In this document: piece by piece, positions 8,263 to 27,197 of the stretch | Position numbering within the stretch: the first letter of the stretch is position 1 | How the letters are laid out: each line of letters begins with the position of its first letter | Source of the DNA: an uncultured delta proteobacterium | GTDB lineage: Bacteria; Desulfobacterota; Binatia; UBA9968 | Assembly: GCA_963760795.1 (NCBI GenBank) | Contig: CAVXEP010000025.1 | Location: 64,001-128,000 of the forward strand | DNA length: 64,000 nt | Reading direction: 5' to 3' | The notes under the pieces: generated by a model | Seen by the model: only the letters and a program-made list of their open reading frames with translations | What the model was told of the DNA's origin: nothing | The model's database searches: none | Position numbers and translations under genes: made by a program

Positions 8263-11200
8263 TTACGAATTCCGCACAATAAAAGATGGCGGCTGCGGTC
8301 CGGTGCCGGTTGGCGTCGAAAAAATCGGTGGCGCGGACGCACTCGGTTGTCGAGCGTCAGCACTAAGACGGTTCAAATATTGGACAAACGCATCGGTAAA
8401 AGGAACACTTTGATTGAGCACCCGTTTGGGAGCCCATGCGCCACCCGATCGCGACAAGAAAGTCGTAGCCGAGCCATTGACGAAGGAAATGATTTTGCCG
8501 CCTTTAGGTCCTGCGTCCAAATCCTTAACTTCCAACAAAAGTCCTTCCCACTGCTGCTGCAAATATTTGCCCGACTCTTCGAGAATCGCCTTCCAGCCAA
8601 CGGAAATTGGACTGCTGAGCACTGATCCACACCAACCGATCCTCTTGCTGAGGCGACCCGATGGTCGACCGCAGCATGTTCAGCGACAACGCGGCCTTGA
8701 GTATCGCTTGCGTTGGGTTAGCTGCTGCCATCCCCCTCCTCGAATGCCTTCTTCGCCGATGCAAAACTCTTTTCCGGAGTACTCAAGTCTGCTTTGATCT
8801 GATCTAACGCGCTCAAGTATGAACTCAGGAACTTCACCGCTTCGGCTTCCTTTCCCTGAGCGCTGTCTTGGGCATGCCGGCTTGGCGTTTTTTTGCGCTT
8901 CGACAATTTTCGTCTTTCAGCGCCATGAGCTTCTTGAGCGTCGCCGCCCATGGTTGCAATTCACCGCTCTGCCATGCGTGCCGAGAATGACACTTAGATT
9001 ATCGTGGCGGATTGAAGGATCAGAATAGCTGGCGATTTGTCACCATCGAGCGCTAAAGCAATGTCTTTGGTTGCCCGCTTTTGGCTGGCCGAGCCGCTCC
9101 ATCTGCGGATACGAGTTCAAGAACTCGTCCCACTGTCGCAAGGCTTGTGTCCGGTAATTGGTTTCGAAACTCTTCAGAGATTCGCCCACGCCGGACGTCT
9201 TGCTCGTCATACTTTGAAGGCCAGAGATTAGCGGTGCAATCCCTTCGCGCCAAGCCTTAGCCGTATAAGCCGGGTCTACCTGAACCGGCCCATTGGAATC
9301 CCAGAAATCCGCGGCGCGCACAGCGGGAAAAGCAGCCGAAGCCGAGTCCAAAATTCTATCCTCACGAAGCCCCCCGCCATCCAACCACCGCCGTATTCGG
9401 TCCGTATCTTTCGACTGCATGTCACGCAGCGCGGTATCACTTTGCCAAGTCAAGTAAGCGTGATGCGTCCGACGCAGGCGCTCAGCAGTCATGGCGACAG
9501 AGTCCTGCGAGCCCTGTCCCGAAGTTAGTAGAACGCGGTAGTCTAAATTATGTTCGGGTTGAAGCGCGGCGCAATGGCCTTCGTCTAGACAGCGACCTAC
9601 GATCTGGATGCGCTGCATCACGGTTCCCACAACCATCGGGTTTGCCGATGTAGTGCTAAGATTTTGGTCAATACGGGTATCAATCGTAGCAAGCACTTGG
9701 GAACGGAAGGCATCGATAAATCGCGTCTGCAATGCACTCGCGACTTGCTTTGACTTATTTAGGCCGAAATCCATGGCCAGCCTTTTCCAAAACGATTTCG
9801 GTAGTAGATTTTCGATATTATGCCGGCATTCGTCGAGGGGGCCCAAGACAGCCGGCAACTCGTTGCTGCCGCCCCGGGTAACGCATGGCAGGACATCGAC
9901 CGATTTCAACGCAAACAAGTTATTGGTGAAGGCAAGCGTGAAGACTCCACAAACAAGCAGCGACACGGTCACGGCAACCACCACCCCCGCCGCGCGCGCC
10001 AGCCCAAAGCGCTCACGACCCGTCGCAGTCTGACCAACAAGGGTGCGATCAGATGGCAAGACGATGGCGCCAAAATCTCGCAAGAACACTTCCCGGCTCG
10101 CCGTCGTCGGTGTCGCGTGAGAATAATTTTGTCCGAGCAAATGCGACAGACGAGATAGAGGCGTAGAGCCTTGACGCGCGCTGGTTAAGAATAAACCGCG
10201 AAAAAACGGCGCATCGTGATACGGGCTTGAGCGAAAAACTACTTCGATCAATGCCTTCAAGCGGGACCTGCAAGCTTTTCAGTTCTCCAGGAAACAAAAA
10301 CATACCCCGCGTTAAGTTTTCGTTTTCGCACTCGTTAAATACAGCTATTCTCAACTCGCTCTAGTCGTTCGTAGACCATACGAAAGCCGCGATCGAACAA
10401 ACGGGGCGCCTCGGCGGCACTGGTCATTTCCTGATTGGCAAAGCCGAGGGCTTGGCCTTTTACTGTGTCGGGTAAGAGCTGAAAGAATTCACTAAAGCCG
10501 ACAATCCGGTCGCTTTTGGTGACCGCTATGTAAACTGGAAATTTGACCCCAAGTTGCTGCACCAAGTCATCGAGACGCTCGCGCAGCTGCGCCCCTTGCT
10601 CTTTCAACTTTTCGATCGGTTTAGAGATTAAGGAGTCCGCAGGGACGGCAATAACAACACCATTAATCGGCTCTCGGCCACGGTTAGTTTTTAGTAAAGT
10701 AAGTAGAGTCTGCCACTCGGCCGCGACTTCACCTTCTTTCTCCTGAAAGACATAACCGCCCGCAGTGTCGAGAAACACTGCTTTTTCGAAGAACCACCAA
10801 TCGACGTTGCGCGTCCCGCCCTCCGCACTCGATGGGCCGATTGAAGATAGCGGTGCTGACGCTTTCAAAAAAGCCGACTTTCCGCCTCCAGGTTCGCCGA
10901 TTACCAAATACCAAGGAAACGCGTAGATCGGATCGTCACCCGCCCCTTTCAATTTTGACTGTCGCAACGATGCTAGAGCTTCGAGCCATTTCTTCTTGAT
11001 GTCGAGGATCCCGCCACGATCTCCCTTACCAATGCTGATCTCACGTTCTTGTTTGGCCGACTCGCCTTCCGTCGCTACCGCCTTGCGCCGCCGCCACCAG
11101 CGCCAAGTCAAATACCCGCCGCCTGCTGCAAGCACCACAACCGCCAAACCGACGAGCAACTTCCACCAGGGTAGCTGCCAATAGACTTGGCCCGCCGCTA

Positions 11201-11690
11201 GCAATAGAAGTAGTATTGCCACCCCAGCCGCGACAGGAACGTAAGGACGCACGCTCTCCCAAGCACCAACCCCCACCCTCGCCTTGGGCTCGGCCTGCTC
11301 TTTTCGCTCCATAGTAAAAATCTCGGTTGGAGCGCTCTCCGGCGATTGGGCTTCACTTACTTCGGCGACCGCCGATGGATCTTTTGTGGAAAACGAGAGC
11401 TTCGGTCCGCGGGCGGAGAGTTGAATGACATCCCCGTCTTTCAGTTGGACTGGTTTATCGATCTTGCGCGAGTTAACCAGAGTGCCATTACGACTCTGCA
11501 AGTCCTTTAGGAAATATCGCTCACCGTCGCGATATATTTCCGCGTGATAGCCAGACACGGAGATGTCTATTTTGGGATCGAAACTGAGGTCGTTATCGCG
11601 TTGTCGCCCGATGCGGATCGTCTGGTCATTATCAAAACTCTCTAGTTGGCCAGCTTTGCTGCCTTCGATATGGGCTAAAAAAATCGGCAT
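8263..11690 (-). CDS. tssM: FHA-domain/TssM(IcmF)-like fusion, split by several single-base frameshifts
   Basis: N-terminal FHA (IGR..N, VSGYHA, LQSRNGTLVN), 2 TM, PWYLVIGEPGGGKS, WWFF..AVFLDTAG, PINGVV, FPVYIAVTKSD, then FRGLFLTSARQ and a TM. Track ORFs 10335-11690, 10049-10354, 9040-10260, 8718-8951, 8525-8764 and 8263-8622 chain together; extra bases visible at ~10355 and ~10261. Confidence 0.85.
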
Positions 11691-12188
11691 AGATGAAATT
11701 GCGGAGACGAGGGCCCGGTTACACGATACCGCGAATACTAATCGATAATTCGACTGACAGTCAAGTTGTTCTATAATTTCAAAGAATTACGTACTTTTGT
11801 TGTGCTACCGTTGCCGACAAAGATCTCCCAGCTTGCGTCGTCGAAATGACGCTCGACGCCATGGCACGACGGTGCTGGGCGTCTCTGATACGAAGGATTC
11901 ACTCGCGGAGCACGCATAGTTAGGCATACACTATCGTGACGCAAAGTCGGGATTAGCGCGATCGAGGAATAACGTCGTGGGGATCCTGCCGGGGGAACAG
12001 AGGCTAAACCGAGTCGGTGGAGTGGGGAGAGCGCTACCTTTGACGGTGTTCCGAGGGCCGCGGCTCGGATCGTATGCCAACGCATGCTGGAGCAGCATGC
12101 ATCTGGCCGACGTCTAACGTCGGAATGAACGAATAGGCTTTCAAGCACGGCGAGCAGATGAGGGTACGACGTAGATCTGAGGCGAAGT

Positions 12189-12261: not shown

Positions 12262-13172
12262 TCAGAAAACAAAGGTGATACCGATTACCCCACCCTTCGT
12301 TATGTCGTTCTCATTGGTCAGGAACGACCAATCCTACGGCTCGGATCCAGCTTGTAAACGACTTATCAATGACTTGGTACCTATATCCTGCAGTCAAAGC
12401 GATCGGTAAGCGTCGGCAGTTTATAAGCTATGCCACTTTCAAAATTGGAATACCATGCGTGGTTGTAATTGCGAAGTTCCCCGTTCAGCGCCAGGCCGGA
12501 CCGGTTAACAATCTTCCCTGCACATCTAAATACCCACCAACGAGCGTTGCCATAAACGCTAAACCCCGCAGGAAACTCATTCCACTGCGGTATGGGTACG
12601 TTTAACGATAGACCAACGGTCGGGCCTTGCAAGGCATATTCAGTCTTAAATTACAGCAAAGGCGGCTGACAGCAGTCAGAAAGTTTGAAACACTCCTTTA
12701 TAACCAGCTGATACCGCAAGCCATGGTAAGACATAGTAGCCCAGGTTAACGTCCACTTCTTTGCGCTTCATACGCATGGTCTGTTAACTCACCGACAATT
12801 GGGGAAATGGGGCGGATCTTGGTATATCTGGCGCGCTGGTAACTTGTTCCAAACATACCACTCGCGGAAATAAAAAAATCTTTATATCGTAAACCAAACG
12901 TCGGTATTAAGTTCATTCCGAACGTTTCCAATTTTATTGGGCCGCTCCCACTGAATACTTCTCCCGGGCGCATCCAGTCGTTAAACCAAGTTTTGAAACC
13001 GACTGAGATGTTTAGACCGTCGGGCAGATCGATCGGGCAACTTAAACATTGTGTCAGTCGGCGCCGGCGCTGAAGCGGGCTCCGTTGGTTGCGCGTAGGA
13101 AGGGTTGAATTCCCCCTCCCAAGCGATTGCAACAATCGCAGTAATGACGAAAATCCTGAACATTTTCTGCAT
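12262..13172 (-). CDS. Putative outer-membrane beta-barrel protein (frameshifted)
   Basis: Signal peptide MQKMFRIFVITAIVAIAW..., amphipathic strands (GLNISVGFKTWFNDW, QGPTVGLSLNVPI, NFESGIAYK), ends NDITKGGVIGITFVF-stop with a terminal Phe; spread over several frames. Confidence 0.65.
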
Positions 13173-13474: not shown

Positions 13475-14089
13475 TTACATATTGGGAGGTAAAAAATACC
13501 ATCTCGAAAGGGTCTCTTTTTTCACTGTCGTCCGAATCGGCTGATCGCGCTGTTGTGCTTCAACCAATTGCCCCCGTTGAGGTATCTCCGGACCCTTAAC
13601 TGGACAGCTCACCTTATCCAGTTCAAGCTTACGCCCACCTGTGGTCATCGCGTTGACTTCCTCTTGGATCTCGTTCCACGGGGTTTGCTTCAAATCGTTG
13701 ATCTCACGATCGACCAAGATTCGGACTGGGGCCTGATTGTAGTCTTTCGTGAGACCTGCCAGCCGATCCAAGCGGGACTGATATATTCTTCCTGGGATCT
13801 CGGAGAAGGATATAAGCTGCGACCGGAACGAAACCATTGGGTCCGGCCGGCCGGAGTTCGCGTTTACGTTACTTAGGCATTGATAGAATTCATAAACTCG
13901 ACGGCGCGCTTGAGCCCGCACTTTTGAATCATCATTGGCGATGTTTAAGAAATCCCAGTCGGACGAATAAGGCGACGGAAAAACGCCAACCGCAGAGTAG
14001 CTTGCGGCCCAAGGCGACGGCACATCGACCAGGGCGCAGCCCGAAGTCACAACCACCAGGAACAATAGTCGTGGCAAGATTTTATTCAT
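13475..14089 (-). CDS. Hypothetical lipoprotein
   Basis: ATG 14089 after a GGAGGG RBS; MNKILPRLLFLVVVTSG-C lipobox. Confidence 0.7.
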   Translation of the reverse strand: MNKILPRLLFLVVVTSGCALVDVPSPWAASYSAVGVFPSPYSSDWDFLNIANDDSKVRAQARRRVYEFYQCLSNVNANSGRPDPMVSFRSQLISFSEIPGRIYQSRLDRLAGLTKDYNQAPVRILVDREINDLKQTPWNEIQEEVNAMTTGGRKLELDKVSCPVKGPEIPQRGQLVEAQQRDQPIRTTVKKETLSRWYFLPPNM

Positions 14090-14241
14090 GGAACCCCTCC
14101 CCATCGCTAAACGGATTTCACATAGTCTGAACGTGACTAAAACAGATTCTATGCCCGTTGCGCTACAAATTTGCCGTCTTTTTTCCCACACAATCTACTC
14201 TTGATTTTGCCCATCGTCAAAACCGCAAACGAGGCCGCCAG

Positions 14242-15750
14242 CTAAAAACTCGGCGGTATGAACGGCTGTTTAGTTTTTTGCGGTGGCCGTTCCTTGAGCT
14301 CGCGCTCTAGCTGATCCAAGCGCTGTCGTTCCTCTTCTAGCCGTTGCCGCTCGCGAAGTTCTTCCCGCGATTTCTCCTCGGTCCGTTTGCGCTCCGCTTC
14401 GGCCTTTTGCCGTTTCTCTTCCTCTCTTCGCCGCTCCTCTTCCTGAGCACGCCGCTTCGCATCTTCGGCGGCTTTTTGCTTTTGGGCTTCCGCCTTCGAG
14501 CGGATTTCTTCCTCTCGGCGGCGTTCTTCCTCTTGGGCTTTTCGCTTTGTTTCTTCTTCGGCTTTCTTTCTCTCCGCTTCGGCCTTTTGCCGTTTCTCTT
14601 CCTCTCTTCGCCGCTCCTCTTCCTGAGCACGGCGCTTCGCATCTTCGGCGGCTTTTTGCTTTTGGGCTTCCGCCTTCGACCGGATCTCTTCCTCTCGGCG
14701 TCGTTCTTGCTCTTGGGCCTTTCGCTTTGTTTCTTCTTCGGCTTTCTTTCTCTCCGCTTCGGCCTTTTGCCGAATCGACTCTTCAAGCTTTCTTTTCTCG
14801 TCAATGAGCCGCTGGCTTTCTTCCTTGAGCTTACGATCTGCTTCCGCTTTCCGACGTCTTGCGTCCTCCGCGCGCTTTTGTTCATCCTCTGACTTTTGCT
14901 TTAGCTCGGACTCACGTTTTTTAACCTCTTCTTTTATGCGCTGCTGTTCAGCCTTTTGCCGCGCTGCCTCGTCCGATCTTCTTTTGTCCTCATCCTTGCG
15001 TCTCTGGGCCTCCTCGGCCTGTCTCTTGCGTTCCGCCTCACGCGTTTTCGCGTCTTGTAGCCGTTGCTGCTCGAGTTCCGCTTTTTGCCGTTTCTGTTCG
15101 TCGAGCTTTCGGCTAGTCTCTTCTTTCCGTCGAGCTTCTTCCTGGGCTTTGCGCTCAGCTTTTTCTTTTTCTTCTCTGGCTCGCCGTTCACGCTCCGCCG
15201 TTTCTTTCGCTTCGCGTTCCTGACGCTCTTGTGCCTCTTTGGCTTTCTGTTCACGCGCAGCTTTTTCTTTCGCCTCTCGGTCAAGCCGCTCGCGCTCAGC
15301 ACGCTCCTTAGCTTCTTTCTCCTGACGCTCTTTGACGGCCTGCTCCCGAGCTGCCCGCTCCTCGCGCTCGCGGTCCGCCTTTTCTTTTTCTTGGCGCGCC
15401 CGCTCAGCCCTCAGTTTTTGCTGGGCTTCGGTGTACCGCGCCGCGGCTTGTCTGATCGCGGAAAGCGCATTGTCGTCCGCCCCGCTTGACCGCAATTGCT
15501 GTTCTGCCGCGTTCGTATAGTCAAAATTCACTCCATGCTCGTTGACGACTTGGGCAACCCGCGCCGGGCTGACTTTATCCTTCAAGAGATCGGTGATCTC
15601 CTTTAAACTGAACGGGCCTCGCCCTTGAGCGAGGGCGCAAACCACCGCCGCTAGCGCCAACACATTCCCAAGCAAAGAGAGCGCTGATTTCGCCGGCACG
15701 AGCGAAATTGCCCAGGGTTGCTTCACCTCGACCTTTGTCTCTGGTTTCAT
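14242..15750 (-). CDS. Secreted protein: small helical N-domain + long E/R/K-rich charged helix (TolA-like composition)
   Basis: Signal-like VLALAAVVCALAQ, then ~380 proline-free E/K/R/Q/A residues; C-terminal KQPFIPPSF; start uncertain. Confidence 0.75.
   Translation of the reverse strand: MKPETKVEVKQPWAISLVPAKSALSLLGNVLALAAVVCALAQGRGPFSLKEITDLLKDKVSPARVAQVVNEHGVNFDYTNAAEQQLRSSGADDNALSAIRQAAARYTEAQQKLRAERARQEKEKADREREERAAREQAVKERQEKEAKERAERERLDREAKEKAAREQKAKEAQERQEREAKETAERERRAREEKEKAERKAQEEARRKEETSRKLDEQKRQKAELEQQRLQDAKTREAERKRQAEEAQRRKDEDKRRSDEAARQKAEQQRIKEEVKKRESELKQKSEDEQKRAEDARRRKAEADRKLKEESQRLIDEKRKLEESIRQKAEAERKKAEEETKRKAQEQERRREEEIRSKAEAQKQKAAEDAKRRAQEEERRREEEKRQKAEAERKKAEEETKRKAQEEERRREEEIRSKAEAQKQKAAEDAKRRAQEEERRREEEKRQKAEAERKRTEEKSREELRERQRLEEERQRLDQLERELKERPPQKTKQPFIPPSF
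14385..14772. repeat. 180-bp (60-aa) tandem duplication within the charged-helix gene
   Basis: Lines at 14401 and 14581 are near identical; the GGCCTTTTGCCG register recurs at 14761. Confidence 0.9.
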
Positions 15751-15844
15751 CAAGATGTTCAACTCAGCAAGACAATGCAACCAGGCTAAGGTTTTTCTAA
15801 TGACCGCCTCGTCCGTTGGATGATTTGCGCTAAAGGGAGAGGCT

Positions 15845-17443
15845 TCAAGAGTCGCACCGCGAGTTCGTCAGCCCGCTACGCCGTTCGGCCTGGCAGGCAC
15901 TCTTGGTTTGTTGATATTCGGATTGGACGAGCTTGTTTCTAGGATCGATTGCTTTAGCTTGGCGGAGCGAATCGAACGCAACATCGTAGTTCCCCTTATC
16001 CCGCGAGGACCGGGCGATCTTGATGATCTCATCCACCGTCGGCCCAGGCGGCGGCGCTTTGGCCTTGACGGTCACATTGAAAGCCGCGCTCTCTGCGCCC
16101 TGGTGCTTCACGGAAATCTGCGCTATTCCTTCATTGCGCGCCACCACTTCGCCCTGCCCATTAACGGTAGCTACCGAAGGATTGCTGCTTTGCCACTCTA
16201 AATTCTCAGTAATCGCTGTCTGGGTTCCGTCGCTAAAGTTGCCACTAACCGTTAGCGGACCTTTCTCGCCGACTGCGAGTTCTCGCTGTCCGGTCAATGC
16301 CAGTGCGACAACCTTTCTTGGCGCAGGGTCGTGACTTCCAAATCCACCCATGAACCACAACAAGGCAATAACTAACACAACAGCACCCGCTACTGCCGCG
16401 CCCATAATCGGAAGGCTATATCGCGATGTCTTCGGCAAGTCCTCCCGGTTAAGAATCATGGTCTGTGAAACGGTATGATTCACCGGTACCTCGTCTATCG
16501 CGATGCCGTTCGCCTTCTGTAATCCCTCCACGACCGCGTGCATATCCTTGAGCCGCTTCTGGGGCTTTTTTTCCAGGGCTTGCATGACCAATCGTTCGAT
16601 TACAGCTGGCACCTCGCGGCGTATTTTCCGCAGCGGTGCCGGCTGTTCCTGGAGATGCTTGATCAAAACCGCGCTTGGCGTAGAGGCTTTGAACGGAACC
16701 GAGCCGCTAAGCATTTCATAGAGAACGACTCCCAAGGCGTAGATGTCGGTCTTCTCGCTGATATCCGTGCCTTCCGCTTGCTCTGGAGCCATATAGGCAG
16801 GGGTTCCCATGATCACCCCAGTGCGGGTCAGGTTGGCGGCATTACCAGAATCCATCATGCGCGCGATGCCAAAGTCCATCAGCTTGATTTCTTCAGCGCC
16901 ACGGTGGCCCAAGACCATGATATTGTCCGGCTTGATGTCACGATGAATGACTCCGGCCAAATGCGCTGCTTCGAGCCCTTCCGCGATCTGGAGGCCCAGT
17001 CGGACCGCCCGCCGAATTTCCAGTGGGCCGTCGTGCCGGACTACATCGCTCAGCTTTGCACCCTGCAAAAACTCCATGGCAATGAACAAGCTGCCATCAT
17101 TACCCTGGTCGAAATCGTATATGGTGACGATATTTCGGTGGTTGAGCGAGGCGGCCAATCGAGCCTCCCGGCGAAATCGGCCGATAAATTCATCGTCGTT
17201 GGCATAGTTTCCCTGCAAGACTTTTAGCGCAACTTTGCGGCCTACGCTGATCTGCTCGGCAAGATAGACCGAACCCATGCCCCCCTCGCCGATCTTGCTA
17301 ATTACACTGTAGCGGCCCTTAACAAGTTTGCCTAAATAAGGATCCTCTTTCACCCCGACAATTCGCAGAGTCGCGCCATCGGCCTCACAATGCTCGACGG
17401 CATGTTCGTAGTTTCGTTCGCAAAGTGGACAGTACTTCATCAC
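15845..17443 (-). CDS. Membrane Ser/Thr kinase 1 (Cys4 ribbon-kinase-TM-Big_2-TPR-like cap)
   Basis: GEGGMGSVY, VALK, HRDIKPDN, DFG, GTPAYMAPE; TM; WQSSNPSVATV Ig-like group 2 motif. Confidence 0.92.
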   Translation of the reverse strand: MMKYCPLCERNYEHAVEHCEADGATLRIVGVKEDPYLGKLVKGRYSVISKIGEGGMGSVYLAEQISVGRKVALKVLQGNYANDDEFIGRFRREARLAASLNHRNIVTIYDFDQGNDGSLFIAMEFLQGAKLSDVVRHDGPLEIRRAVRLGLQIAEGLEAAHLAGVIHRDIKPDNIMVLGHRGAEEIKLMDFGIARMMDSGNAANLTRTGVIMGTPAYMAPEQAEGTDISEKTDIYALGVVLYEMLSGSVPFKASTPSAVLIKHLQEQPAPLRKIRREVPAVIERLVMQALEKKPQKRLKDMHAVVEGLQKANGIAIDEVPVNHTVSQTMILNREDLPKTSRYSLPIMGAAVAGAVVLVIALLWFMGGFGSHDPAPRKVVALALTGQRELAVGEKGPLTVSGNFSDGTQTAITENLEWQSSNPSVATVNGQGEVVARNEGIAQISVKHQGAESAAFNVTVKAKAPPPGPTVDEIIKIARSSRDKGNYDVAFDSLRQAKAIDPRNKLVQSEYQQTKSACQAERRSGLTNSRCDS

Positions 17444-17956
17444 TAAAACCCAGTTAAATCCCAGCCGCTACTTACCAAGTTCCTTGGTTTTTAGCAAAGT
17501 AGCGACAAATAGAAAACCGTCAGCCAATTTGCGACTTAGGCTTCGGCTGACACAAAAACGTCATAGCCCATGGCTGGGAATTGTCAGTAAGTTATCAAAG
17601 ATCATCAAGGCGCTACGGTTTCTGAGACTGCTTCGACTTTCCAAGATTAACTCACGATGTCGCGTTGTCATAAACATCGCCTGTCCTCGAAACAATAACC
17701 GGCTCAGGACAACAAACATCTCCCTTTTGCGCCGATTTGTCGTATAATTACAAACGTTTTGAGTGTATCAGCCCGACATTTGAACGTCGGTTTCGATGGA
17801 TTTTCAATAGACTGTTTTAAAGCTATACTTTGCGGAAGAGGAAGCGATTACTAGGCAAAAAAGAGTTCAGCGCGCTTCGTTGCGTCATGGACAAGTCAAA
17901 CTTTGAGAATAGTTTACGCGCCCCGCGGGCCATCACAGTCTGAATTAGGCAATCCA

Positions 17957-20143
17957 ATGAAAAACTGCCCTAATTGTCATCGACAGTTTAGCGATGACGC
18001 AACCACCTGTGAATTTGACGGCACCCCCCTCGTCGGATCGGCTTCAACGCAAGATCCACTCATCGGCACAATTCTTAACCGCCGGTACAAAATCCTCGAT
18101 CAGATTGGCCGCGGCAGCATGTCGAACGTTTACCTCGCCGAACAACTCCGCGTCGCAAGAAAAGTCGCGGTGAAGCTACTGGCCGAAGAATTTTGCCGTG
18201 ATGAAGCCTGCATCAAGCGCTTCCAGCAGGAGGCGAAAATTGTTTCAAGCCTAGACCATCCGAATCTGATACGGATCTTCGATTTCGACCATACGGACGG
18301 CGGCGGCTTGTATATCGTGACGGAATATTTGCGCGGGCAAACCCTTAAAGCGATCATCGATCGCGGTGCGATCGAAATCCCCAAAGCCGTGCGCTTCGCA
18401 GCACAAATTGCCGATGGCCTTGGTGCCGTCCATCGAGCTGGGATCGTTCATCGCGATCTTAACGCCAAAAACGTGATGGTGATCGATAACGAAACTAAGA
18501 TCACCATCACGGATTTCGGCTTTGCCAGACTGCGCGAAGCGGAGTCCGTCGCAAGACTCACCCAAGTCGGCACCGCTTTGGGCGGTCCTGAATATATGGC
18601 CCCGGAACAGATTGAAGGCCGCGAGACCGACGAACGAACCGATATCTACTCTCTAGGAATCCTGCTTTACCAAATGCTTTGCCATACCCTGCCGTTCACC
18701 GCGCCGACACCGGCCGCCGTGTGGATGCAACACCTAAAGGCCGCCCCCATGCCGCCGACTCAACTACGCCCGGAAATCTCGGCAGAATTAGAACAAGTTA
18801 TTTTACGTGCTTTACAGAAAAATCCTGAACTCCGTTGGCAGGGAATGACGGAATTTGCCGAAGCGATCCGGCACACCGAAAGAGTCGTTGGCCAGAAATT
18901 GTCACCCTCGTCTGAGCATCCGACCTCAGCGCTAGATACGCGGCCAAGGCTAACAGAAATCAGCGACTCACCGGTAACACACCCAGCGGAGGCGTTGAAT
19001 CGCCGCACAGTTCACACCGACGCGAATTTCCGCACTGCCGATGCCGCTCCCCAAACCGTCATCATGGAATCCTTCGATACATCAACCGTCAACTCTGAAA
19101 GCGACAAATCTCGGTACGAATCGGTAAACAGCAACAACCAAACAATGGTACTGACGAAGGCTCTCGAGATCGGCCCACGTCCCGGACGAAATTGGCAGGT
19201 GTGGAGTTTGGGCGCCGCCGCGCTATTCGCCTGTGCTGCGATCGTATGGTTGGGCGTGTTCTCTAAGCCCGTCCCGGAGAACCGACCGTCATCCCCTGCT
19301 GAGGATCCCAGCCGCACGACAGTCAAAGAGTTACCACCAAGTCAGATGGTATCGATTTCTATCGATGCGGAAAAAGCAGTATTGAACCTCGGCGAGGGCA
19401 CGACCCTGCGCTTAAGCGTCCAATACAGCGACGGCTCACGCAAGGCCATCAGCGGCACCGAGCCGATCAGTTGGACCAGCACAGATCCGACAATCGCAGC
19501 AGTGGATTCAAGCGGTGCGGTCAACGCGAAAAAAGTCGGCAAAGCTGAGCTGAAAGCCCGCTATTTAGGCTTGGAGACACAGCTTTTGCCCGTGCAGGTT
19601 AAAGCACCATCGCCATCCCCGGCCGCGCAACCAAAGCTCATTGCCGTGACCGTGAAAGCGGCTAAACGGGATCTGACCGTCAACGATGAAGTTAATTTGC
19701 AGGCAACCGGCATATATTCGGACAAACGACAGTTGGCAATCAAAGCCGGCGTTCGCTGGGACAGTAGTGACCCGAATATCGCGGCTGTAACTGAATCGGG
19801 AACTGTACTCGCCAAAAAAGCAGGACGCGTGGAATTGATCGCGCGCTACGATGGGATCGCTAGCGAACCACTGACCTTGCTCGTCAAACCAGCATCAATG
19901 AAAAACCCAGCCACTATTCAACAGACAAGGAAGCCATTGGCGACAAAAGTGGCCAATACCTCGGAACAAATTAGAAACGCTCGATCTCGACTGGACCGCG
20001 GTGAATACACCGAGGCGCTGGGCGAACTGGAGAAAGCCAGCAAAGTCGATCCCGGCAACAAAGAAGTGCAAGCCGCAATCCTTGACGCCAAACGCGCCTG
20101 CAATGCCGAGCGGGCATTTGGCCGCACCGATCTGAAATGTTAA
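17957..20143 (+). CDS. Membrane Hanks-type kinase 2 with atypical catalytic loop (2x Big_2, TPR-like cap)
   Basis: MKNCPNC start at 17957; GRGSMSNVY, VAVK, HRDLNAKN, DFG, GGPEYMAPE; TM; WTSTDPTIAAV and WDSSDPNIAAV. Confidence 0.9.
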   Translation: MKNCPNCHRQFSDDATTCEFDGTPLVGSASTQDPLIGTILNRRYKILDQIGRGSMSNVYLAEQLRVARKVAVKLLAEEFCRDEACIKRFQQEAKIVSSLDHPNLIRIFDFDHTDGGGLYIVTEYLRGQTLKAIIDRGAIEIPKAVRFAAQIADGLGAVHRAGIVHRDLNAKNVMVIDNETKITITDFGFARLREAESVARLTQVGTALGGPEYMAPEQIEGRETDERTDIYSLGILLYQMLCHTLPFTAPTPAAVWMQHLKAAPMPPTQLRPEISAELEQVILRALQKNPELRWQGMTEFAEAIRHTERVVGQKLSPSSEHPTSALDTRPRLTEISDSPVTHPAEALNRRTVHTDANFRTADAAPQTVIMESFDTSTVNSESDKSRYESVNSNNQTMVLTKALEIGPRPGRNWQVWSLGAAALFACAAIVWLGVFSKPVPENRPSSPAEDPSRTTVKELPPSQMVSISIDAEKAVLNLGEGTTLRLSVQYSDGSRKAISGTEPISWTSTDPTIAAVDSSGAVNAKKVGKAELKARYLGLETQLLPVQVKAPSPSPAAQPKLIAVTVKAAKRDLTVNDEVNLQATGIYSDKRQLAIKAGVRWDSSDPNIAAVTESGTVLAKKAGRVELIARYDGIASEPLTLLVKPASMKNPATIQQTRKPLATKVANTSEQIRNARSRLDRGEYTEALGELEKASKVDPGNKEVQAAILDAKRACNAERAFGRTDLKC

Positions 20144-20168
20144 GGGGGTTAGACCTACCACGGTTAAG

Positions 20169-20981
20169 CTATTTTTTTTGAAGCAGATCGACCTCTTCCT
20201 CAATCGTCCGGCCGACCGATTCTAAGCCAACGATGAATTCTGGACGATCCGTCCTTTTGTTGACAATCATGACGAGGCTCGCGTCCACCCGCGCGCTGAT
20301 CAGTTTGCGGCCATCCCAGCCGCGATTTGACTCGGTTTTTCTCACCGCTGTGTGCCAGCTCTGTATCTCTTTCAGCGCACGCTCAATATCTCTCACCGCT
20401 TGTTGACCAGGGCTGCTTAACGCGACGTTCAATCGCGCTCGTCCGCTCGCGCGAATTTGCGCGATTAACTCGTCGTCCGCGCCGGCGCGGCGTAACTCCT
20501 TCTCGCCATCGGCGTTCAAGTCAAAACTTGCCCCTCGCTCTTTCACGAGAGTCGCAACCCGCTTCGGAGAAACTCTTTCTTTTAGAATAAACAGAACATC
20601 ATTCAGCGCAAACGAGTTATCGGACTTCGACGCCGGCGCAGGCCCGGCTTCGCGAAAGGCAATAATGCCAAGGTAGAGCCGGGCCATGAAGTCGCCACCA
20701 TCGCGCTTTAATCCCTGAGCGAGCGCATTTCGAGCATCGGCAATTCTACCGGCATCATAGTAAGCTCGTCCCAGATAGGTCCAAATGCTTTGCCGGAGCG
20801 GCGGAGTATCAACAACATAGTCGGGCTGGGCCACCGCAATGCGCTCGAAGTGGGAGATCGCGACATCCGCCTTGCCGGATAATAACGCAGTGCGGCCCGA
20901 CTGGGACTCCTTCGCTACTTGAATGCCACAGCCGCTGAAAAATGAAATTACAAAGATCGAGTAAAGTAGTCGTTTTAACAT
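20169..20981 (-). CDS. TPR-containing lipoprotein
   Basis: MLKRLLYSIFVISFFSG-C lipobox; TPR-like YLGRAYYDAG..A..AL and ARLYLG. Confidence 0.75.
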   Translation of the reverse strand: MLKRLLYSIFVISFFSGCGIQVAKESQSGRTALLSGKADVAISHFERIAVAQPDYVVDTPPLRQSIWTYLGRAYYDAGRIADARNALAQGLKRDGGDFMARLYLGIIAFREAGPAPASKSDNSFALNDVLFILKERVSPKRVATLVKERGASFDLNADGEKELRRAGADDELIAQIRASGRARLNVALSSPGQQAVRDIERALKEIQSWHTAVRKTESNRGWDGRKLISARVDASLVMIVNKRTDRPEFIVGLESVGRTIEEEVDLLQKK

Positions 20982-21222
20982 CTTCAACCTCTCAACAGAG
21001 TGTAAGATATTTAACAACATGGAGGCAAACAATTGGCGAGAGCTGCTGAGCCAGCGATTAATTTGCTATGAACCGGTAACAATGAAAAAACCCATCGCGG
21101 CCACAACTTGCGACGCCATAAAGAATACTAAGAATTTGCATCACTATATAGTGAAGCCAATAAATATGTTGACATAAATCACCCACTCCTTAATCCCCTC
21201 CAGTCGGAGAGTGTGTCGTAAC

Positions 21223-21424: not shown

Positions 21425-23236
<1,812 letters not shown>

Positions 23237-24197: not shown

Positions 24198-25001
24198 ATG
24201 AGCGCTAAAGAGCTATTCGACGCCGGCAACCTCAGCGGCGCCATCGAACAGGTGACTCAAGATGTGAAGTCCAACCCGCGCGACCTCAAAAGCCGGATCT
24301 TCCTGTTTGAGTTGCTCTGCTTCGCTGGCGAGTTTCAGCGGGCGCAGCGCCAGCTTGACGCCGCCGCCCAGACCAGCGGCGATGTTAAAATCGAAATGGG
24401 CGCTCAAGCCTATCGGAACCTGCTTGAGGCCGAAAAACTGCGCCGGGAGTTTTTCACCGGGGCGCACAAGACGCCGAAGTTTTTTTCCGAACCGCCGGCC
24501 TACACCGCGCTGCATATCGACGCGGTCGGGAAATTGCACGGCCAGGAGTGGGACGCCTTGGAACAATTGATGGAACAAAGCGCCAGTGTTCGCCAGCCGC
24601 TCTCGGGACAATGCAACGGCAAAGCATTCAGTGATTTTCATGATGGTGACGATCTGCTCAGTCCGTTTTTAGAAGTGCTTTTCCAGAGCGATTATTATTG
24701 GCTGCCGCTGGAACAGATCGAGCGCGTTGAAATCCCCGCGCCAACCACGCTGCGAGATCTCCTCTGGACGCCGGCCAATGTCCAACTAAGTGACGGCCCC
24801 CTCGGCGATCTGCTGATACCGGCGCAATATTATGGCTCCCACGAGAATCCCGACGATCTGGTCAAACTCGGCCGAATGACCAATTGGAATTCTGTGGGCA
24901 ACGATCATCTCTCGGGGCTGGGACAACGGACGTTTTTTGCCGACGACACCGAATATCCGCTGCTCGAAATCAGAACTCTCGAATTCACCGCCAAATCTTA
25001 A
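24198..25001 (+). CDS. tagJ: T6SS accessory TagJ/ImpE (SciE)
   Basis: LFELLCFAGEFQRA..QL, DGDDLL.PFLE, YYWLP, TTLRDLLWTP, LGRMTNW, GLGQR. Confidence 0.9.
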   Translation: MSAKELFDAGNLSGAIEQVTQDVKSNPRDLKSRIFLFELLCFAGEFQRAQRQLDAAAQTSGDVKIEMGAQAYRNLLEAEKLRREFFTGAHKTPKFFSEPPAYTALHIDAVGKLHGQEWDALEQLMEQSASVRQPLSGQCNGKAFSDFHDGDDLLSPFLEVLFQSDYYWLPLEQIERVEIPAPTTLRDLLWTPANVQLSDGPLGDLLIPAQYYGSHENPDDLVKLGRMTNWNSVGNDHLSGLGQRTFFADDTEYPLLEIRTLEFTAKS

Positions 25002-25077
25002 CTTGCCTCGTCGCCTTTCGACCGTCTGATTGTTGGATGCAAGACAACCCCGAATACTGCGAGGAGAGCCCGACTGG

Positions 25078-26301
25078 ATGAGTAAATCGCCACCCAACTT
25101 CAGCGCCGACAAGTCTTCCACCTGGTTGAAAAAGGGTATGGAGACTTTGACGCGAATGAATCGGGTCATGGTTCCGTCATCAAAAGTTGGCGGGAGCGCT
25201 AATCCGTTACGCGAGATATTTTCGGACCTGATGGCATTTATCATCTTTTTCGAAAGCTACTGTGAACAAAAGCCGCCTGAGTTGCAGGAATTCAAAGAGC
25301 GCGTGATTTCGTTGATCGCTGCCCAGGAAGAGCGGGCAAAAAGCGCGGGCGTAGCGATAGAAGCATTTCGCGAAGCGCGTTTCGCCGTGCTCTCATGGGT
25401 GGATGAGATCGTTCTCAATTCGAAGTGGCTGCACCGCAGCCAATGGCAGCACCTCATGCTCGCCTATTACGGGACGGTCAACGCCGGGGAGCAGTTTTTC
25501 CGCCATCTGGATGCCTTACCGGCCCAGGCAAACGACATCCGAGAGATATATTTTCTTTGCATTTGTCTCGGCTTTCAGGGCGAGCTGGCTTTCGGCGACG
25601 GTCTTCGCGAACTACAGTCACTGAAACAACGCATCTACAAACAGCTAACCGCCAATGGTCAAGACATTCGACAAAACTATCCGCGGCTATTTCCCGAAGC
25701 TTATCAAAAAGCCAACGCCGCGCCCCAGGCGGCAGCCAAATCTAATCGGCTATGGTACATCACGGCAGGCGCCGTTCCGCTTCTACTTTTCGCGATCTTT
25801 TGGTTCTTGTTGCATCGCGAGGCCAATCGCCATCTGGCGATGCTTGATCGCCCCCAACCCCTCGTAACCAAATGCGATCAAACAAACTGGGCCGCGTCAC
25901 TGGTTGCCGACCTCCGCGGCAGGAGGCTGCGCGCCGTCGATGAACCCGATGGGGTTCGTATCATTCTGGAAAGTTTGGTATTCGCCGTCAGTAGCGCAGA
26001 GTTGAATCCGCAGGCAGAGGCTAGGATCGCCGATATTGTCAGCACTGTGAGGTGCTATGCACCGGACAGAGCCATCACCGTAGAAGGCCACGCGAGCAAA
26101 GAACGCGATGGGGACGAGGCGCGTAATCGGAAACTGTCCGAAGATCGCGCCCGAACGGTTGCTGACGCATTTGTCCGAATCGGCTTCAGCCGAGAGAAAA
26201 CCTCCGCGCACGGGTTAGGCAGCTCCAAACCGGTCGCGTTGAACGATACCGAAGATGGTCGCAGTCAAAATCGTCGCGTCGAGATCATCGTCAAAAAATG
26301 A
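25078..26301 (+). CDS. tssL: T6SS TssL/DotU with C-terminal OmpA peptidoglycan-binding domain
   Basis: ARFAVLSWVDE, NAGEQFF, EIYFLCICLGFQG; TM; VEGH..N..LSEDRA..NRRVEI; start uncertain (25078 or 25138). Confidence 0.9.
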   Translation: MSKSPPNFSADKSSTWLKKGMETLTRMNRVMVPSSKVGGSANPLREIFSDLMAFIIFFESYCEQKPPELQEFKERVISLIAAQEERAKSAGVAIEAFREARFAVLSWVDEIVLNSKWLHRSQWQHLMLAYYGTVNAGEQFFRHLDALPAQANDIREIYFLCICLGFQGELAFGDGLRELQSLKQRIYKQLTANGQDIRQNYPRLFPEAYQKANAAPQAAAKSNRLWYITAGAVPLLLFAIFWFLLHREANRHLAMLDRPQPLVTKCDQTNWAASLVADLRGRRLRAVDEPDGVRIILESLVFAVSSAELNPQAEARIADIVSTVRCYAPDRAITVEGHASKERDGDEARNRKLSEDRARTVADAFVRIGFSREKTSAHGLGSSKPVALNDTEDGRSQNRRVEIIVKK

Positions 26302-27197
26302 GCCTAACGACTTCACAGCTTAAAGTCGCTGCATTCGGCATGTCCGACGTCGGTCGCGTGCGCACCAACAATGAGGACAACTACCTTTTTACCCAACTTG
26401 GTAGCGGCTTGTTCAATGCGGTGTCACCGGACTGCACCAAGGGTGATAATCAGTGGATTTTTATCGTCGCTGACGGCATGGGCGGCGGCCAAGCCGGTGA
26501 AGTAGCCAGTCAGTTGGCAGTAGCAGGCGTAGCGCAACGTTTTGCCGAACAACTGACGGGGGAGAAACAGTTGACTCAACAGGTATTCGCCAAGGCCTTA
26601 ACCCATGCAGTCGAAGAAACGAATCGATCGATCTTCCAGGAAAGCCAGGAAAACCAAGAACTAACTGGAATGGGAACGACTCTAACCGCAGCTGCCGTGT
26701 CCGGCACGATCCTGACAGTCGCCCAACTCGGAGACAGCCGAGCCTATCTGCTACGGGATGGGAGCATTACGCAATTGACCAAGGATCAGAGTCTCGTCGC
26801 TCAAATGGTCGAGGCAGGCAAAATCACCCCCCAAGAAGCCAAGACTCATCCACGCCGCAACGTCGTCCTGCAGGCGATGGGCGTGCTACCGCGTGTAGAT
26901 GTCGCCATCGCTACCGCGAACTTAAAACGGAACGACCGCATGGTGCTTTGTAGTGACGGTCTTTGGGGCAAAGTCGAACCCGAGGAGATCGTCGAATTTG
27001 TCCATCGCTTTGAACCTCAAGCGGCGTGCGAGAGCTTAGTCCGGCTGGCCAACGAACGTGGCGGCGAGGACAATGTCACAGTCATCGTCGCCAATTTCAC
27101 CGGTGATGGGATATCGGAAACCGATGAGACTAAGGTTCCCACCCTCGAAATCGTCAAGCAGAAGCGCTCTTGGTGGGGTTTTTGGAAACGACGTTAA
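26298..27197 (+). CDS. PP2C Ser/Thr phosphatase (PppA/Stp1-like)
   Basis: SDVGRVR.NNED, VADGMGG, GMGTT, GDSRAY, LCSDGL, GGEDNVT; ATGA overlap with tssL. Confidence 0.93.
   Translation: MSLTTSQLKVAAFGMSDVGRVRTNNEDNYLFTQLGSGLFNAVSPDCTKGDNQWIFIVADGMGGGQAGEVASQLAVAGVAQRFAEQLTGEKQLTQQVFAKALTHAVEETNRSIFQESQENQELTGMGTTLTAAAVSGTILTVAQLGDSRAYLLRDGSITQLTKDQSLVAQMVEAGKITPQEAKTHPRRNVVLQAMGVLPRVDVAIATANLKRNDRMVLCSDGLWGKVEPEEIVEFVHRFEPQAACESLVRLANERGGEDNVTVIVANFTGDGISETDETKVPTLEIVKQKRSWWGFWKRR

What the first reader, a model, noticed from the sequence alone, without database searches (positions are those of the whole stretch)
8263..27197. Candidate new system: T6SS controlled by a three-receptor-kinase array wired into an FHA-TssM fusion
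Seen: the gap between tssM and tagJ-tssL-PP2C holds three paralogous TM Hanks kinases, two lipoproteins, a charged-helix protein and a beta-barrel OMP, and FHA is fused to TssM. Known: the characterised threonine-phosphorylation pathways (P. aeruginosa H1 PpkA/PppA/Fha1 with TagQRST, Serratia, Agrobacterium) use one kinase, one phosphatase and a free Fha. Inference: a multi-input envelope-sensing module with a novel periplasmic/OM relay in place of TagQRST.
Basis: partly seen in the sequence, partly recalled or inferred. Interest (0 to 1): 0.85.

Follow-up and report, generated by a model that had tools for sequence, protein, structure and literature searches.

The report
T6SS with FHA-TssM and three kinases
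This is a horizontally acquired type VI secretion island of a little-known subtype in which the phosphothreonine-reading FHA domain is built into the membrane protein TssM and up to three receptor kinases sit beside it, although tssM is broken by frameshifts in this assembly.

Summary
Three transmembrane Hanks kinases, a PP2C phosphatase, TagJ, TssL-OmpA and an FHA-TssM fusion lie in one T6SS island next to tRNA-Gly. These three are the only kinases over the Pfam cut-off in the 6.58 Mb genome.

The fusion is a family: 37 of the 120 listed long homologues carry FHA plus IcmF_N. In 11 of 11 informative lineages, FHA-TssM comes with at least one similar kinase linked to T6SS genes. Six of the 11 have two or more.

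Three corrections:
- **Broken genes.** tssM carries 8 one-base frame changes and the OMP gene at least 7. I judge these about 70% likely to be local assembly errors, because there are no in-frame stops and short-read contigs from other soils lack the extra base at 3 of 3 covered tssM sites.
- **Kinase K2.** K2 and its closest relatives have lost the catalytic-loop lysine, so it is probably a pseudokinase.
- **The proposed relay.** The OMP, the 238-aa lipoprotein and the charged-helix protein have no counterpart in any related locus. Only the TPR lipoprotein recurs, and it has five paralogous copies elsewhere in the genome.

Verdict: a new variant of the threonine-phosphorylation pathway. Three literature searches found no description of it. 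Interest is moderate.

The parts
153..8363 (-). T6SS core operon inside the window: TssE 153-641, a SAM methyltransferase 747-2258, Hcp 3000-3482, TssC 3551-5047, TssB 5062-5586, TssA 5701-6804, TssK 6906-8363. TssF, TssG, ClpV, VgrG, DUF2169 and Rhs continue upstream of the window on the same contig.
   Evidence: Pfam. Upstream genes.
8266..11690 (-). FHA-TssM fusion gene. It encodes FHA (residues ~5-93), a linker, two TM spans, an NTPase part with Walker A (GEPGGGKS), a third TM span and a periplasmic part. In this assembly the frame changes 8 times, near 10345, 10265, 9085, 9045, 8978, 8918, 8730 and 8623.
   Evidence: Pfam. Piecewise tblastn against the intact homologues P0001, P0002 and P0005. 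Three-frame reading. Family alignment A1. Independent contigs lack one base at 8624, at 10259 and at a second site within 10219-10476.
12265..13172 (-). Beta-barrel outer-membrane protein gene directly upstream of tssM, with a signal peptide and a C-terminal GITFVF. It is broken by at least 7 frame changes in this assembly. It is not found in related T6SS loci.
   Evidence: Piecewise tblastn with the intact 291-aa homologue P0289, pieces 44-94% identical. Atlas look-alikes are OMP_b-brl, OpcA and Pom clusters. One short-read contig shows 8 indels over 12515-12823. No hit in the loci.
13475..14191 (-). Orphan lipoprotein. The likely start is MNKILP at 14089 and the lipobox is VTSGC. No family was found and it is absent from related loci.
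14242..15780 (-). Membrane-anchored charged-helix protein of 512 aa. It has an N-terminal TM span, a ~55-aa domain shared with the TPR lipoprotein, and a long E/K/R/A-rich helix containing 180-nt tandem repeats.
   Evidence: (39% identity over 82 aa to the lipoprotein). No Pfam family.
15845..17443 (-). Receptor kinase K1: CxxC-x10-C-xx-D motif, canonical Hanks kinase, one TM span, one Big_2 domain and a C-terminal helical cap with two Cys.
   Evidence: Pfam. Motifs and TM span. Tree.
17957..20143 (+). Receptor kinase-like K2 (728 aa as called in P0121). It has the same layout with two Big_2 domains and the cap. The catalytic loop reads HRDLNAKN and the glycine loop GRGSMS, so it is probably a pseudokinase.
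   Evidence: Model of the ectodomain. Long branch in the tree.
20169..21032 (-). TPR lipoprotein, convergent with K2. Orthologues sit in the same place in L005, L086, L010 and L205.
   Evidence: Pfam.. Family search. Alignment A3 with a near-invariant lipobox Cys. Weak complex prediction. Paralogues elsewhere in the genome.
21425..23236 (-). Receptor kinase K3: the same N-terminal motif, a canonical kinase, one TM span, three 46-aa Pro/Ala-rich repeats in place of Big_2, and the cap.
   Evidence: Sister to the kinase next to FHA-TssM in L088.
24198..27197 (+). tagJ (ImpE) 24198-25001, tssL (DotU + TM + OmpA) 25030-26301, and PP2C phosphatase 26298-27197, which overlaps tssL by 4 nt.
   Evidence: Pfam. 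The same 4-nt overlap occurs in L005, L008, L086 and L088 (coordinates).
28052..28126 (-). tRNA-Gly(CCC) marking the island border. Sequence shared with same-genus genomes begins at about 27748.

Best explanation
The window holds one end of a ~43 kb horizontally acquired T6SS island. The island belongs to a distinct subtype regulated by threonine phosphorylation.

What the sequence shows:
- The phosphothreonine reader (FHA) is the cytoplasmic N-terminus of TssM instead of a free Fha protein.
- TssL carries a peptidoglycan-binding OmpA domain, and its gene overlaps that of a PP2C phosphatase by 4 nt, which suggests translational coupling.
- Input comes from several single-pass receptor kinases whose outside parts are Ig-like Big_2 domains or repeats, followed by a conserved three-helix cap with two Cys.

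What I infer:
- Envelope or cell-contact cues act on the ectodomains of K1 and K3, the two kinases with canonical catalytic motifs.
- K2 is probably a pseudokinase. With its TPR lipoprotein it may modulate the other two.
- The active kinases phosphorylate themselves and/or a conserved Thr-bearing motif at the TssL N-terminus, S[ST]W..KG..T[IL].R.
- The FHA of TssM docks on that phosphothreonine and switches the TssM-TssL membrane complex to an assembly-competent state. The PP2C resets it.
- The frameshifts in tssM, the OMP gene and vgrG are more likely local assembly errors (about 0.7) than true decay.
For: Locus anatomy comes from Pfam.

FHA domain and NTPase site:
- The FHA contact residues GR, SxxH and NGT are present in the window protein.
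- R28, S45, H48, N67, G68 and T69 are invariant in 21 of 21 family members, as is the Walker A G267-K268.
- The nearest solved relatives of the FHA part are mycobacterial phosphothreonine readers such as GarA, EmbR and Rv1747.

Dedication to the T6SS:
- 3 of 3 Pkinase matches over the cut-off (of 5 matches in all) and the single PP2C_2 match of the genome lie in the island.

Conservation:
- 37 of the 120 listed long homologues carry FHA plus IcmF_N.
- 11 of 11 informative FHA-TssM lineages have at least one such kinase linked to T6SS genes. Six of the 11 have two or more.
- The tssL-PP2C 4-nt overlap is kept in 4 of 4 relatives listed.
- The TssL motif is present in 7 of 9 TssL proteins examined.

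Kinases:
- They belong to separate old lineages. K3 is sister to the L088 kinase (support 100/99). K2 groups with P0122 and P0123.
- The ectodomain model shows two beta-sandwiches plus a three-helix cap, mean pLDDT 80.2.

K2 ectodomain with the TPR lipoprotein:
- Score 0.41, best of 3 controls 0.00, verdict 'weak support'.
- The mark was reached by 58 of 80 solved complexes and 2 of 110 mismatched pairs. At 0.60 or under, only 7 of those 80 solved complexes and both mismatches reached it.
- The runs agree in at least 55% of contacts, and the partner's pLDDT is at least 81.

The mechanism is modelled on PpkA -> TssL-pThr14 -> Fha -> TssM in Agrobacterium (PMC3953482, abstract and passages read).

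For assembly error rather than decay:
- Only frame changes occur. No piece contains an in-frame stop, and pieces keep 30-94% identity to intact homologues.
- Independent short-read contigs lack one base at 3 of 3 covered tssM sites.
Against: - No phosphorylation, binding or secretion was measured. Every mechanistic step is an inference.
- Neither Ser/Thr position of the TssL motif is an invariant threonine (5 of 7 and 6 of 7 are Thr), and 2 of 9 TssL proteins lack the motif.
- As deposited, tssM, vgrG, one DUF2169 gene and the OMP gene are broken, while rpoB, rpoC and dnaE are intact. Errors would therefore have to be local, and the system may be dead in this organism.
- The contigs are 88-99% alike to the window and may be other strains.
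- FHA proteins also act in T6SSs that have no kinase (V. cholerae TagH; PMC8993066, abstract only), so the FHA may do more than read kinase output.
- The TPR lipoprotein family has five other copies in this genome away from any kinase, and the complex score counts only as a weak pass.
Confidence: 0.6

Rival explanations
1. The island is a decaying, non-functional T6SS in this organism. On this reading tssM, vgrG, one DUF2169 gene and the OMP gene are true pseudogenes, and the kinase array is a relic.
For: - There are 8 frame changes in tssM, at least 7 in the OMP gene, a fragmented vgrG and a split DUF2169 gene.
- About 11.5 kb of rpoB, rpoC and dnaE has no frame change, so the damage is specific to the island.
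- The island is accessory DNA. With the FHA-TssM N-terminal query, only a weak FHA-only hit appeared in 1 of 24 same-genus genomes.
Against: - No piece has an in-frame stop codon, and the pieces keep 30-94% amino-acid identity to intact homologues. Eight indels with no nonsense mutation is unlike ordinary decay.
- The neighbouring kinases, TssK, TssA, TssB, TssC, TssF and TssG are all intact.
- Short-read contigs from other soils lack the extra base at 3 of 3 covered tssM sites.
Confidence: 0.25
2. The kinases and the PP2C are general envelope-signalling genes that merely travel with the island. They do not control the T6SS, and the FHA of TssM has a structural, phosphorylation-independent role.
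For: - FHA proteins are needed in T6SSs that lack a kinase (PMC8993066, abstract only).
- The related genomes G447, G448, G449 and G451 also hold Hanks kinases on contigs other than the T6SS ones.
- The TPR lipoprotein family has paralogues unlinked to kinases or T6SS genes.
Against: - Kinase linkage to T6SS genes holds in 11 of 11 informative lineages from several phyla as labelled in the records.
- The PP2C gene overlaps tssL by 4 nt in the window and in 4 of 4 relatives.
- This genome has no other Hanks kinase over the cut-off.
- The FHA phosphothreonine-contact residues are invariant in 21 of 21 family members.
Confidence: 0.1
3. The OMP, the orphan lipoprotein and the charged-helix protein form the first reader's new outer-membrane relay for the kinases. 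They would replace TagQRST and the missing TssJ.
For: - They lie between K1 and tssM on the same strand.
- No TssJ (PF12790) was found in the genome, which is 89% complete.
- A different ~270-aa secreted beta-rich protein sits directly upstream of FHA-TssM in three other lineages, so an outer-membrane partner at that position may be a rule.
- The charged-helix protein shares a ~55-aa domain with the conserved TPR lipoprotein.
Against: - None of the three has a homologue in any of the related loci searched.
- The OMP has a single detectable homologue, whose genomic context I could not see.
- The window OMP shows no similarity to the 270-aa protein of the relatives.
Confidence: 0.15

Closest known systems
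Agrobacterium tumefaciens T6SS threonine-phosphorylation pathway (PpkA, PppA, Fha, TssL-pThr14, TssM; PMC3953482)
   Same: Both have a Hanks kinase and a PP2C in the cluster. TssL has an N-terminal cytoplasmic extension and a C-terminal OmpA-type peptidoglycan-binding domain. TssM has a Walker A motif. An FHA domain has the Arg and Ser that bind phosphothreonine.
   Different: Here the FHA is fused to TssM and there is no free Fha. There are two or three kinases instead of one, and their ectodomains are Big_2 plus a helical cap. The PP2C is not fused to TagF. The TssL N-terminal motif is a different sequence.
Pseudomonas aeruginosa H1-T6SS pathway (TagQRST, PpkA, PppA, Fha1), as summarised in PMC13584744 (passages read)
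   Same: A transmembrane receptor kinase senses the envelope, a phosphatase resets the signal, an FHA protein transmits it to the apparatus, and lipoprotein partners sit outside the inner membrane.
   Different: The kinases here gave no von Willebrand A domain match in Pfam (that PpkA has such a periplasmic domain is recalled, not from a call). No ABC-type TagS/TagT families were seen among the ORFs scanned between 8.2 and 27.2 kb. Fha1 is a free protein with a long disordered tail, whereas here only the FHA domain remains, tethered to TssM.
FHA domains built into other membrane machines: T3SS inner-ring protein YscD/EscD and the mycobacterial ABC transporter Rv1747
   Same: An N-terminal cytoplasmic FHA-type domain is fused to an inner-membrane component of a transport machine. 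The window protein matches Pfam Yop-YscD_cpl at E 4e-9 and the Rv1747 FHA chain 6cah.
   Different: These are different machines. That the YscD FHA-like domain lacks phosphothreonine-binding residues is recalled, not tested here. The TssM FHA keeps those residues.
Non-fused sister T6SS loci in Desulfobacterota-type MAGs (L015-L084)
   Same: They share the TssM type (25-31% identical, no IcmF_C match listed), a similar core gene order, and TagJ and TssL.
   Different: TssM begins about 130-170 residues later, with no FHA. Only 5 of 70 loci have a complete kinase hit in the flank, with no match to the Zn-ribbon-like part, and a sixth (L023) has a partial one at its contig start. L018 and L023 have a separate FHA gene 4.5-6.7 kb upstream of tssM.

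Membership tests
T6SS threonine-phosphorylation pathway (PpkA/PppA/Fha type) | A Hanks-type Ser/Thr kinase encoded in the T6SS cluster | tested here: met
   There are three Pkinase genes, E 6e-54 to 8e-49. They are the only ones over the cut-off in the genome.
T6SS threonine-phosphorylation pathway (PpkA/PppA/Fha type) | A PP2C-type phosphatase in the cluster | tested here: met
   PP2C at E 1.7e-19 and PP2C_2 at 1.6e-18. It is the single PP2C_2 match in the genome.
T6SS threonine-phosphorylation pathway (PpkA/PppA/Fha type) | An FHA-domain component with phosphothreonine-binding residues | tested here: met
   FHA at E 9e-21. GR, SxxH and NGT are present and invariant in alignment A1.
T6SS threonine-phosphorylation pathway (PpkA/PppA/Fha type) | Phosphorylation of Fha or TssL by the kinase, and secretion that depends on it | not testable with these tools
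   This needs biochemistry or genetics.
Fha/TagH (free T6SS scaffold protein) | A stand-alone cytoplasmic protein: FHA domain followed by a long disordered region and a C-terminal part | tested here: not met
   The FHA is the first ~100 residues of the TssM polypeptide, followed by a ~55-residue linker and TM spans.
PpkA (P. aeruginosa type) | A periplasmic von Willebrand A domain after the TM span (a recalled feature) | tested here: not met
   Pfam finds only Big_2 and weak TPR matches after the TM spans. The model shows two beta-sandwiches and a three-helix cap.
Active Hanks kinase | Gly-rich loop, VAxK lysine, HRDxKxxN catalytic loop and DFG | tested here: met
   Met for K1 and K3: GEGGMG, VALK, HRDIKPDN and DFG.
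Active Hanks kinase | The same motifs in K2 | tested here: not met
   K2 reads GRGSMS and HRDLNAKN. Relative P0122 reads HRDLNCKN. Relative P0123 reads HRDLNTNN and has EFG in place of DFG.
TssM / IcmF | IcmF-related N-terminal NTPase domain with Walker A, and three TM spans | tested here: met
   PF14331 at E 2.5e-35 and 2.4e-13 on two pieces. GEPGGGKS is present. The third hydrophobic span is visible.
TssM / IcmF | C-terminal IcmF_C (PF06744) domain, which binds TssJ in the studied systems (role recalled) | tested here: not met
   There is no PF06744 hit on the window pieces or in the precomputed domains of the 37 fused homologues. No TssJ (PF12790) was found in the genome.
TssM / IcmF | One uninterrupted open reading frame | tested here: not met
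   There are 8 frame changes in this assembly. They may be assembly errors.
'Evolved' TssL | DotU domain, TM span and a C-terminal OmpA-like peptidoglycan-binding domain | tested here: met
   DotU at E 3.8e-40 and OmpA at 1.1e-16. PDB relatives include TSSL1 4b62 and DotU 6y4r.
TagQRST sensor module | TagQ/TagR plus an ABC-type TagS/TagT pair near the kinase | tested here: not met
   None of the ORFs scanned between 8.2 and 27.2 kb gave an ABC-transporter family match. I did not search for TagQ or TagR by name.

The most novel reading that the evidence does not exclude
A distinct T6SS subtype, spread by transfer among soil bacteria of several phyla as labelled in the records, in which assembly of the machine is licensed directly at activated receptor kinases. 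The FHA-TssM fusion would dock on phosphothreonine of the kinases or of TssL, so that several kinases with different ectodomains, one of them a conserved pseudokinase paired with a TPR lipoprotein, decide where and when the apparatus is built. The subtype would lack TssJ and use an outer-membrane beta-barrel protein encoded upstream of tssM as its outer anchor.
Probability: 0.3. Interest if true: 0.75.

Novelty: new variant of a known kind. Interest (0 to 1): 0.55.

Why it matters
What Fha does in the T6SS is still debated: is it a signal relay, or the initiator of assembly? A natural fusion of the FHA domain to TssM, kept in dozens of sequence clusters together with TssL-PP2C and receptor kinases, is gene-fusion evidence that the phosphothreonine signal is read at the TssM-TssL membrane complex. 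It also offers a minimal system for testing that idea: FHA-TssM, TssL, one kinase and one phosphatase.

The recurring multi-kinase layout, with a conserved pseudokinase lineage, suggests that several envelope cues are integrated before firing. None of the characterised pathways I read about shows that.

For this genome, the practical point is that the deposited tssM, vgrG and OMP frames are unreliable.

Tried and rejected
- **Close-relative scan.** The single-protein scan of genome contigs found nothing. I repeated it with alignment A1.
- **ORF coverage.** Coverage of contigs by long ORFs did not tell error from decay.
- **Sequencing runs.** No run held more than 0.13 of the sampled words, so no habitat or strain is claimed. 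Parts of the stretch without cover mean nothing.
- **Indel contexts.** The listed indel sites are not in long homopolymers, so the classic long-read error signature is not shown.
- **Stop-codon recoding.** I considered this for tssM and rejected it. The breaks are frame changes, not in-frame stops of one kind.
- **Window OMP against the relatives' 270-aa protein.** No similarity was found.
- **No family found.** Pfam at E up to 5 gave nothing for the domain shared by the charged-helix protein and the TPR lipoprotein, nor for the 238-aa lipoprotein. The Atlas gave only scores of 0.87 or less for that lipoprotein.
- **Earlier findings.** The look-up returned nothing.
- **ORF 11771-12148.** It has no family and no homologue, and it lies in the OMP-tssM spacer. 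I do not count it as a gene.
- **Misbinned contig.** Rejected. The flank 28.2-40 kb is 85-96% identical and syntenic in the closest same-genus genomes (G003, G019, G017, G022, G013), and 31 of 31 genomes searched (30 same-genus plus G000) have a match.
- Supplements of papers were not read.

Full report
**What is there.** The window is G000:C25:64001-128000 of a 6.58 Mb, 35-contig genome that is 89% complete. Pfam scans give, on the minus strand, TssE (153-641), a methyltransferase, Hcp, TssC, TssB, TssA and TssK (up to 8363). Next comes a TssM gene whose first ORF (10335-11690) carries an FHA domain (E 9e-21), two hydrophobic spans and the IcmF N-terminal domain. Further along lie three Pkinase genes: K1 15845-17443(-), K2 17903-20143(+) and K3 21425-23236(-). 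A TPR lipoprotein (20169-21032) sits between K2 and K3. TagJ, TssL (DotU+OmpA) and a PP2C (24198-27197, plus strand) close the cluster. TssF, TssG, ClpV, VgrG, two DUF2169 genes, an Rhs protein and an IS200-like transposase lie upstream on the same contig. No TssJ family match exists in the genome.

**The island.** A tRNA-Gly(CCC) lies at 28052-28126. The flank 28.2-40 kb is syntenic and 85-96% identical in the closest same-genus genomes, and 31 of 31 genomes searched (30 same-genus plus G000) have a match. Homology with G003 begins at about 27748. With the FHA-TssM N-terminal query, 2 of 41 genomes matched: G000 itself and a weak FHA-only hit in G007, one of 24 same-genus genomes. In a sample of 401 genomes of the phylum, 46 have a TssM. 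Only G000 has the FHA part joined to it; G331 has an FHA-TM ORF without TssM. So the contig belongs to the organism and the T6SS is an acquired island. The tallies include G004, which is flagged unpublished; no sequence of it is used.

**Broken frames.** tssM is not one ORF.
- Piecewise tblastn with the intact homologues P0001, P0002 and P0005 shows the frame changing 8 times between 11690 and 8266. Six of the changes fall in the last 830 bases.
- The OMP gene upstream (13172-12265) changes frame at least 7 times relative to its one detectable homologue, P0289 (291 aa, ending GITFVF).
- vgrG and one DUF2169 gene are also split.
- In contrast rpoB, rpoC and dnaE (about 11.5 kb), the three kinases, and the TssK-to-Hcp genes are whole.
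- No piece contains an in-frame stop, and the pieces keep 30-94% identity to intact relatives.
- Short-read contigs from other soil metagenomes, 88-99% alike, lack one base at 8624, at 10259 and at a second site within 10219-10476. Those are all three tssM frame-change sites that they cover. One contig differs by 8 indels over 12515-12823.

I read this as local assembly error (about 0.7) rather than decay (about 0.25-0.3). These contigs may be other strains, and the indel contexts are not long homopolymers, so the question stays open.

**The fusion is a family.** A search for longer relatives of the 451-aa N-terminal ORF returned 510 proteins. Of the 120 listed, 37 carry FHA plus IcmF_N and are 1003-1183 aa long, which matches the 1141-codon span in the window. 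In the alignment of 21 of them, the phosphothreonine-contact residues of the FHA (R28, S45, H48, N67, G68, T69) and the Walker A residues G267 and K268 are invariant. None has an IcmF_C match listed. The solved relatives of the FHA part are mycobacterial phosphothreonine readers, and Pfam also matches the T3SS YscD cytoplasmic domain.

**Linkage to kinases.** I scanned genome and metagenome contigs with the alignment and mapped the window's proteins onto the loci. I then searched the genomes behind five of the loci. The informative lineages are:

| Lineage | Kinases linked to T6SS genes | Other conserved parts |
|---|---|---|
| Window | 3 | TPR lipoprotein, TagJ-TssL-PP2C |
| L005 / L086 | 2 | TPR lipoprotein, PP2C-TssL-TagJ |
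| L006 | 1 | a TPR/cap-like protein |
| L007 | 1 | contig end |
| L008 / G450 | 1 beside tssM, 1 more next to DUF2169 | PP2C-TssL-TagJ |
| L009 | 1 | TagJ at contig end |
| L010 (= L085, L090) | 1 | TPR lipoprotein |
| L088 | 2 | PP2C-TssL-TagJ |
| G447 (genome of L011) | 2 | K2-type + lipoprotein + TagJ-TssL-PP2C + K1-type, on another contig |
| G448 (L012) | 1, next to TssL | |
| G449 (L014) | 2, next to TssL | |

That makes 11 of 11 lineages with at least one kinase and 6 of 11 with two or more. Seven short contigs (L013, L087, L089, L091, L092, L095, L101) say nothing either way. In the non-fused sister clade (70 loci), 5 have a complete kinase hit, a sixth (L023) has a partial one at its contig start, and two have a free FHA gene. 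In G000, the three kinases are the only Pkinase matches over the cut-off, and the PP2C is the only PP2C_2 match.

**The kinases.**
- All share an N-terminal CxxC-x10-C-xx-D motif (three Cys and an Asp, not four Cys), a kinase domain and one TM span.
- The ectodomains are Big_2 domains (K1 one, K2 two) or three 46-aa repeats (K3).
- Each ends in a conserved ~60-residue cap with two Cys.
- A model of the K2-type ectodomain gives two beta-sandwiches and a three-helix cap. Mean pLDDT is 80.2 and pTM 0.34, from a 5-row alignment.
- K1 and K3 have canonical catalytic motifs.
- K2 and its closest relatives read HRDLN in place of HRDIK, and one of them (P0123) has lost the DFG aspartate. They sit on a long branch, so K2 is probably a pseudokinase.
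- K3 is sister to the kinase next to FHA-TssM in L088. The three are old lineages, not recent copies.

**The envelope proteins.**
- The TPR lipoprotein has orthologues convergent with K2-type kinases in L005, L086, L010 and L205.
- Its family has 19 representatives at E<=1e-30.
- Only 2 of 401 genomes sampled from the phylum have the family, G000 and G331. G000 has five further copies on contigs C3, C33, C15, C34 and C1, away from any kinase.
- A complex prediction of the K2 ectodomain with the lipoprotein scored 0.41 against a best control of 0.00, which the tool rates as weak support. The mark was reached by 58 of 80 solved complexes and 2 of 110 mismatches, but at 0.60 or under by only 7 of those 80 and by both mismatches. 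The runs agree in at least 55% of contacts and the partner's pLDDT is at least 81.
- The OMP, the 238-aa lipoprotein and the charged-helix protein have no homologue in any related locus.
- A different ~270-aa secreted beta-rich protein sits upstream of FHA-TssM in three other lineages.

**Mechanism.** The design matches the Agrobacterium pathway, in which PpkA phosphorylates TssL Thr14, Fha binds it and TssM changes conformation (PMC3953482, abstract and passages). TssL has a ~58-residue N-terminal extension with the motif S[ST]W..KG..T[IL].R in 7 of 9 TssL proteins examined. That motif is a candidate phosphosite, but this is inference only. tssL and the PP2C gene overlap by 4 nt here and in 4 of 4 relatives. 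No step has been measured.

**Literature.** Three full-text searches found no paper describing an FHA-TssM fusion or multi-kinase T6SS loci. The 2026 review of accessory factors (PMC13584744, passages) lists TagE/PpkA and TagH/Fha as separate proteins. A preprint proposes Fha as the initiator of assembly (10.1101/2023.12.21.572528, abstract and outline). Supplements were not available.

**Verdict.** This is a conserved new variant of the T6SS threonine-phosphorylation pathway, and the three kinases extend a recurring two-kinase layout. The proposed OMP/lipoprotein relay is not conserved.

Noticed in passing
L195:10291-14474 (G000:C25:54291-58474): vgrG is split into at least four pieces in different frames. 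One of the two DUF2169 genes is split in two. ClpV has a short C-terminal piece in another frame. This is a second patch of frame changes in the same island.
   Followed up: partly
window 747-2258 (-): A 503-aa SAM-dependent methyltransferase (MTS/PrmA-like, with DUF7059 and DUF7782) lies between tssE and hcp inside the T6SS operon. I did not check whether related loci have it.
   Followed up: no
window 14392-14772 and 21583-21993: The charged-helix gene has 2.1 copies of a 180-nt tandem repeat at 97% match, which goes with an AT skew of -0.44 in the 14-16 kb bin. The K3 ectodomain has 3 copies of a 138-nt repeat at 84% match.
   Followed up: partly
G000:C3:118864-119694, C33:4383-4979, C15:88924-89532, C34:105258-105566, C1:7581-7895: There are five further members of the TPR lipoprotein family outside the island. 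One is full length (39% identical to the island copy). Three lack the middle ~55-aa domain, and the C1 hit matches only the N-terminal part and has an internal stop. In the phylum sample the family was seen only in G000 and G331.
   Followed up: partly
L010:3204-4016, L088:6524-7357, L011:5702-6583: A conserved ~270-aa secreted, beta-strand-rich protein with no Pfam family lies directly upstream of FHA-TssM on the same strand in three lineages. It could be an outer-membrane partner in a subtype without TssJ.
   Followed up: partly
window 15421-15633 (-) and 20433-20630 (-): A ~55-aa helical domain (consensus L.E.VSPKR...LV.ERG..F.L......L...GAD..LI) with no Pfam family is shared by the charged-helix protein and the TPR lipoprotein. 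It occurs up to three times in other proteins such as P0223, P0237 and P0253.
   Followed up: partly
G331:C194:35581-36234 and 30842-31336; G000:C25:31137-31637 and 33302-33487: A related genome has a 371-aa FHA plus TM ORF that matches the first 209 positions of the FHA-TssM model without any TssM part. A protein with the lipoprotein's middle and C-terminal domains lies 4 kb away. G000 has two further FHA ORFs about 15 kb beyond the Rhs/transposase end of the island.
   Followed up: no
L195:4070-9069 (G000:C25:48070-53069): The far end of the island holds an Rhs-repeat protein (1152 aa, DUF6531 at its very start) with small ORFs beside it, and an IS200-like transposase.
   Followed up: no
L012:16086-17380 and L206:14440-15364: Related MAG loci also show frame changes inside conserved genes: tssC in L012 and a kinase in L206. 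Indel noise is therefore not peculiar to the window's assembly.
   Followed up: no
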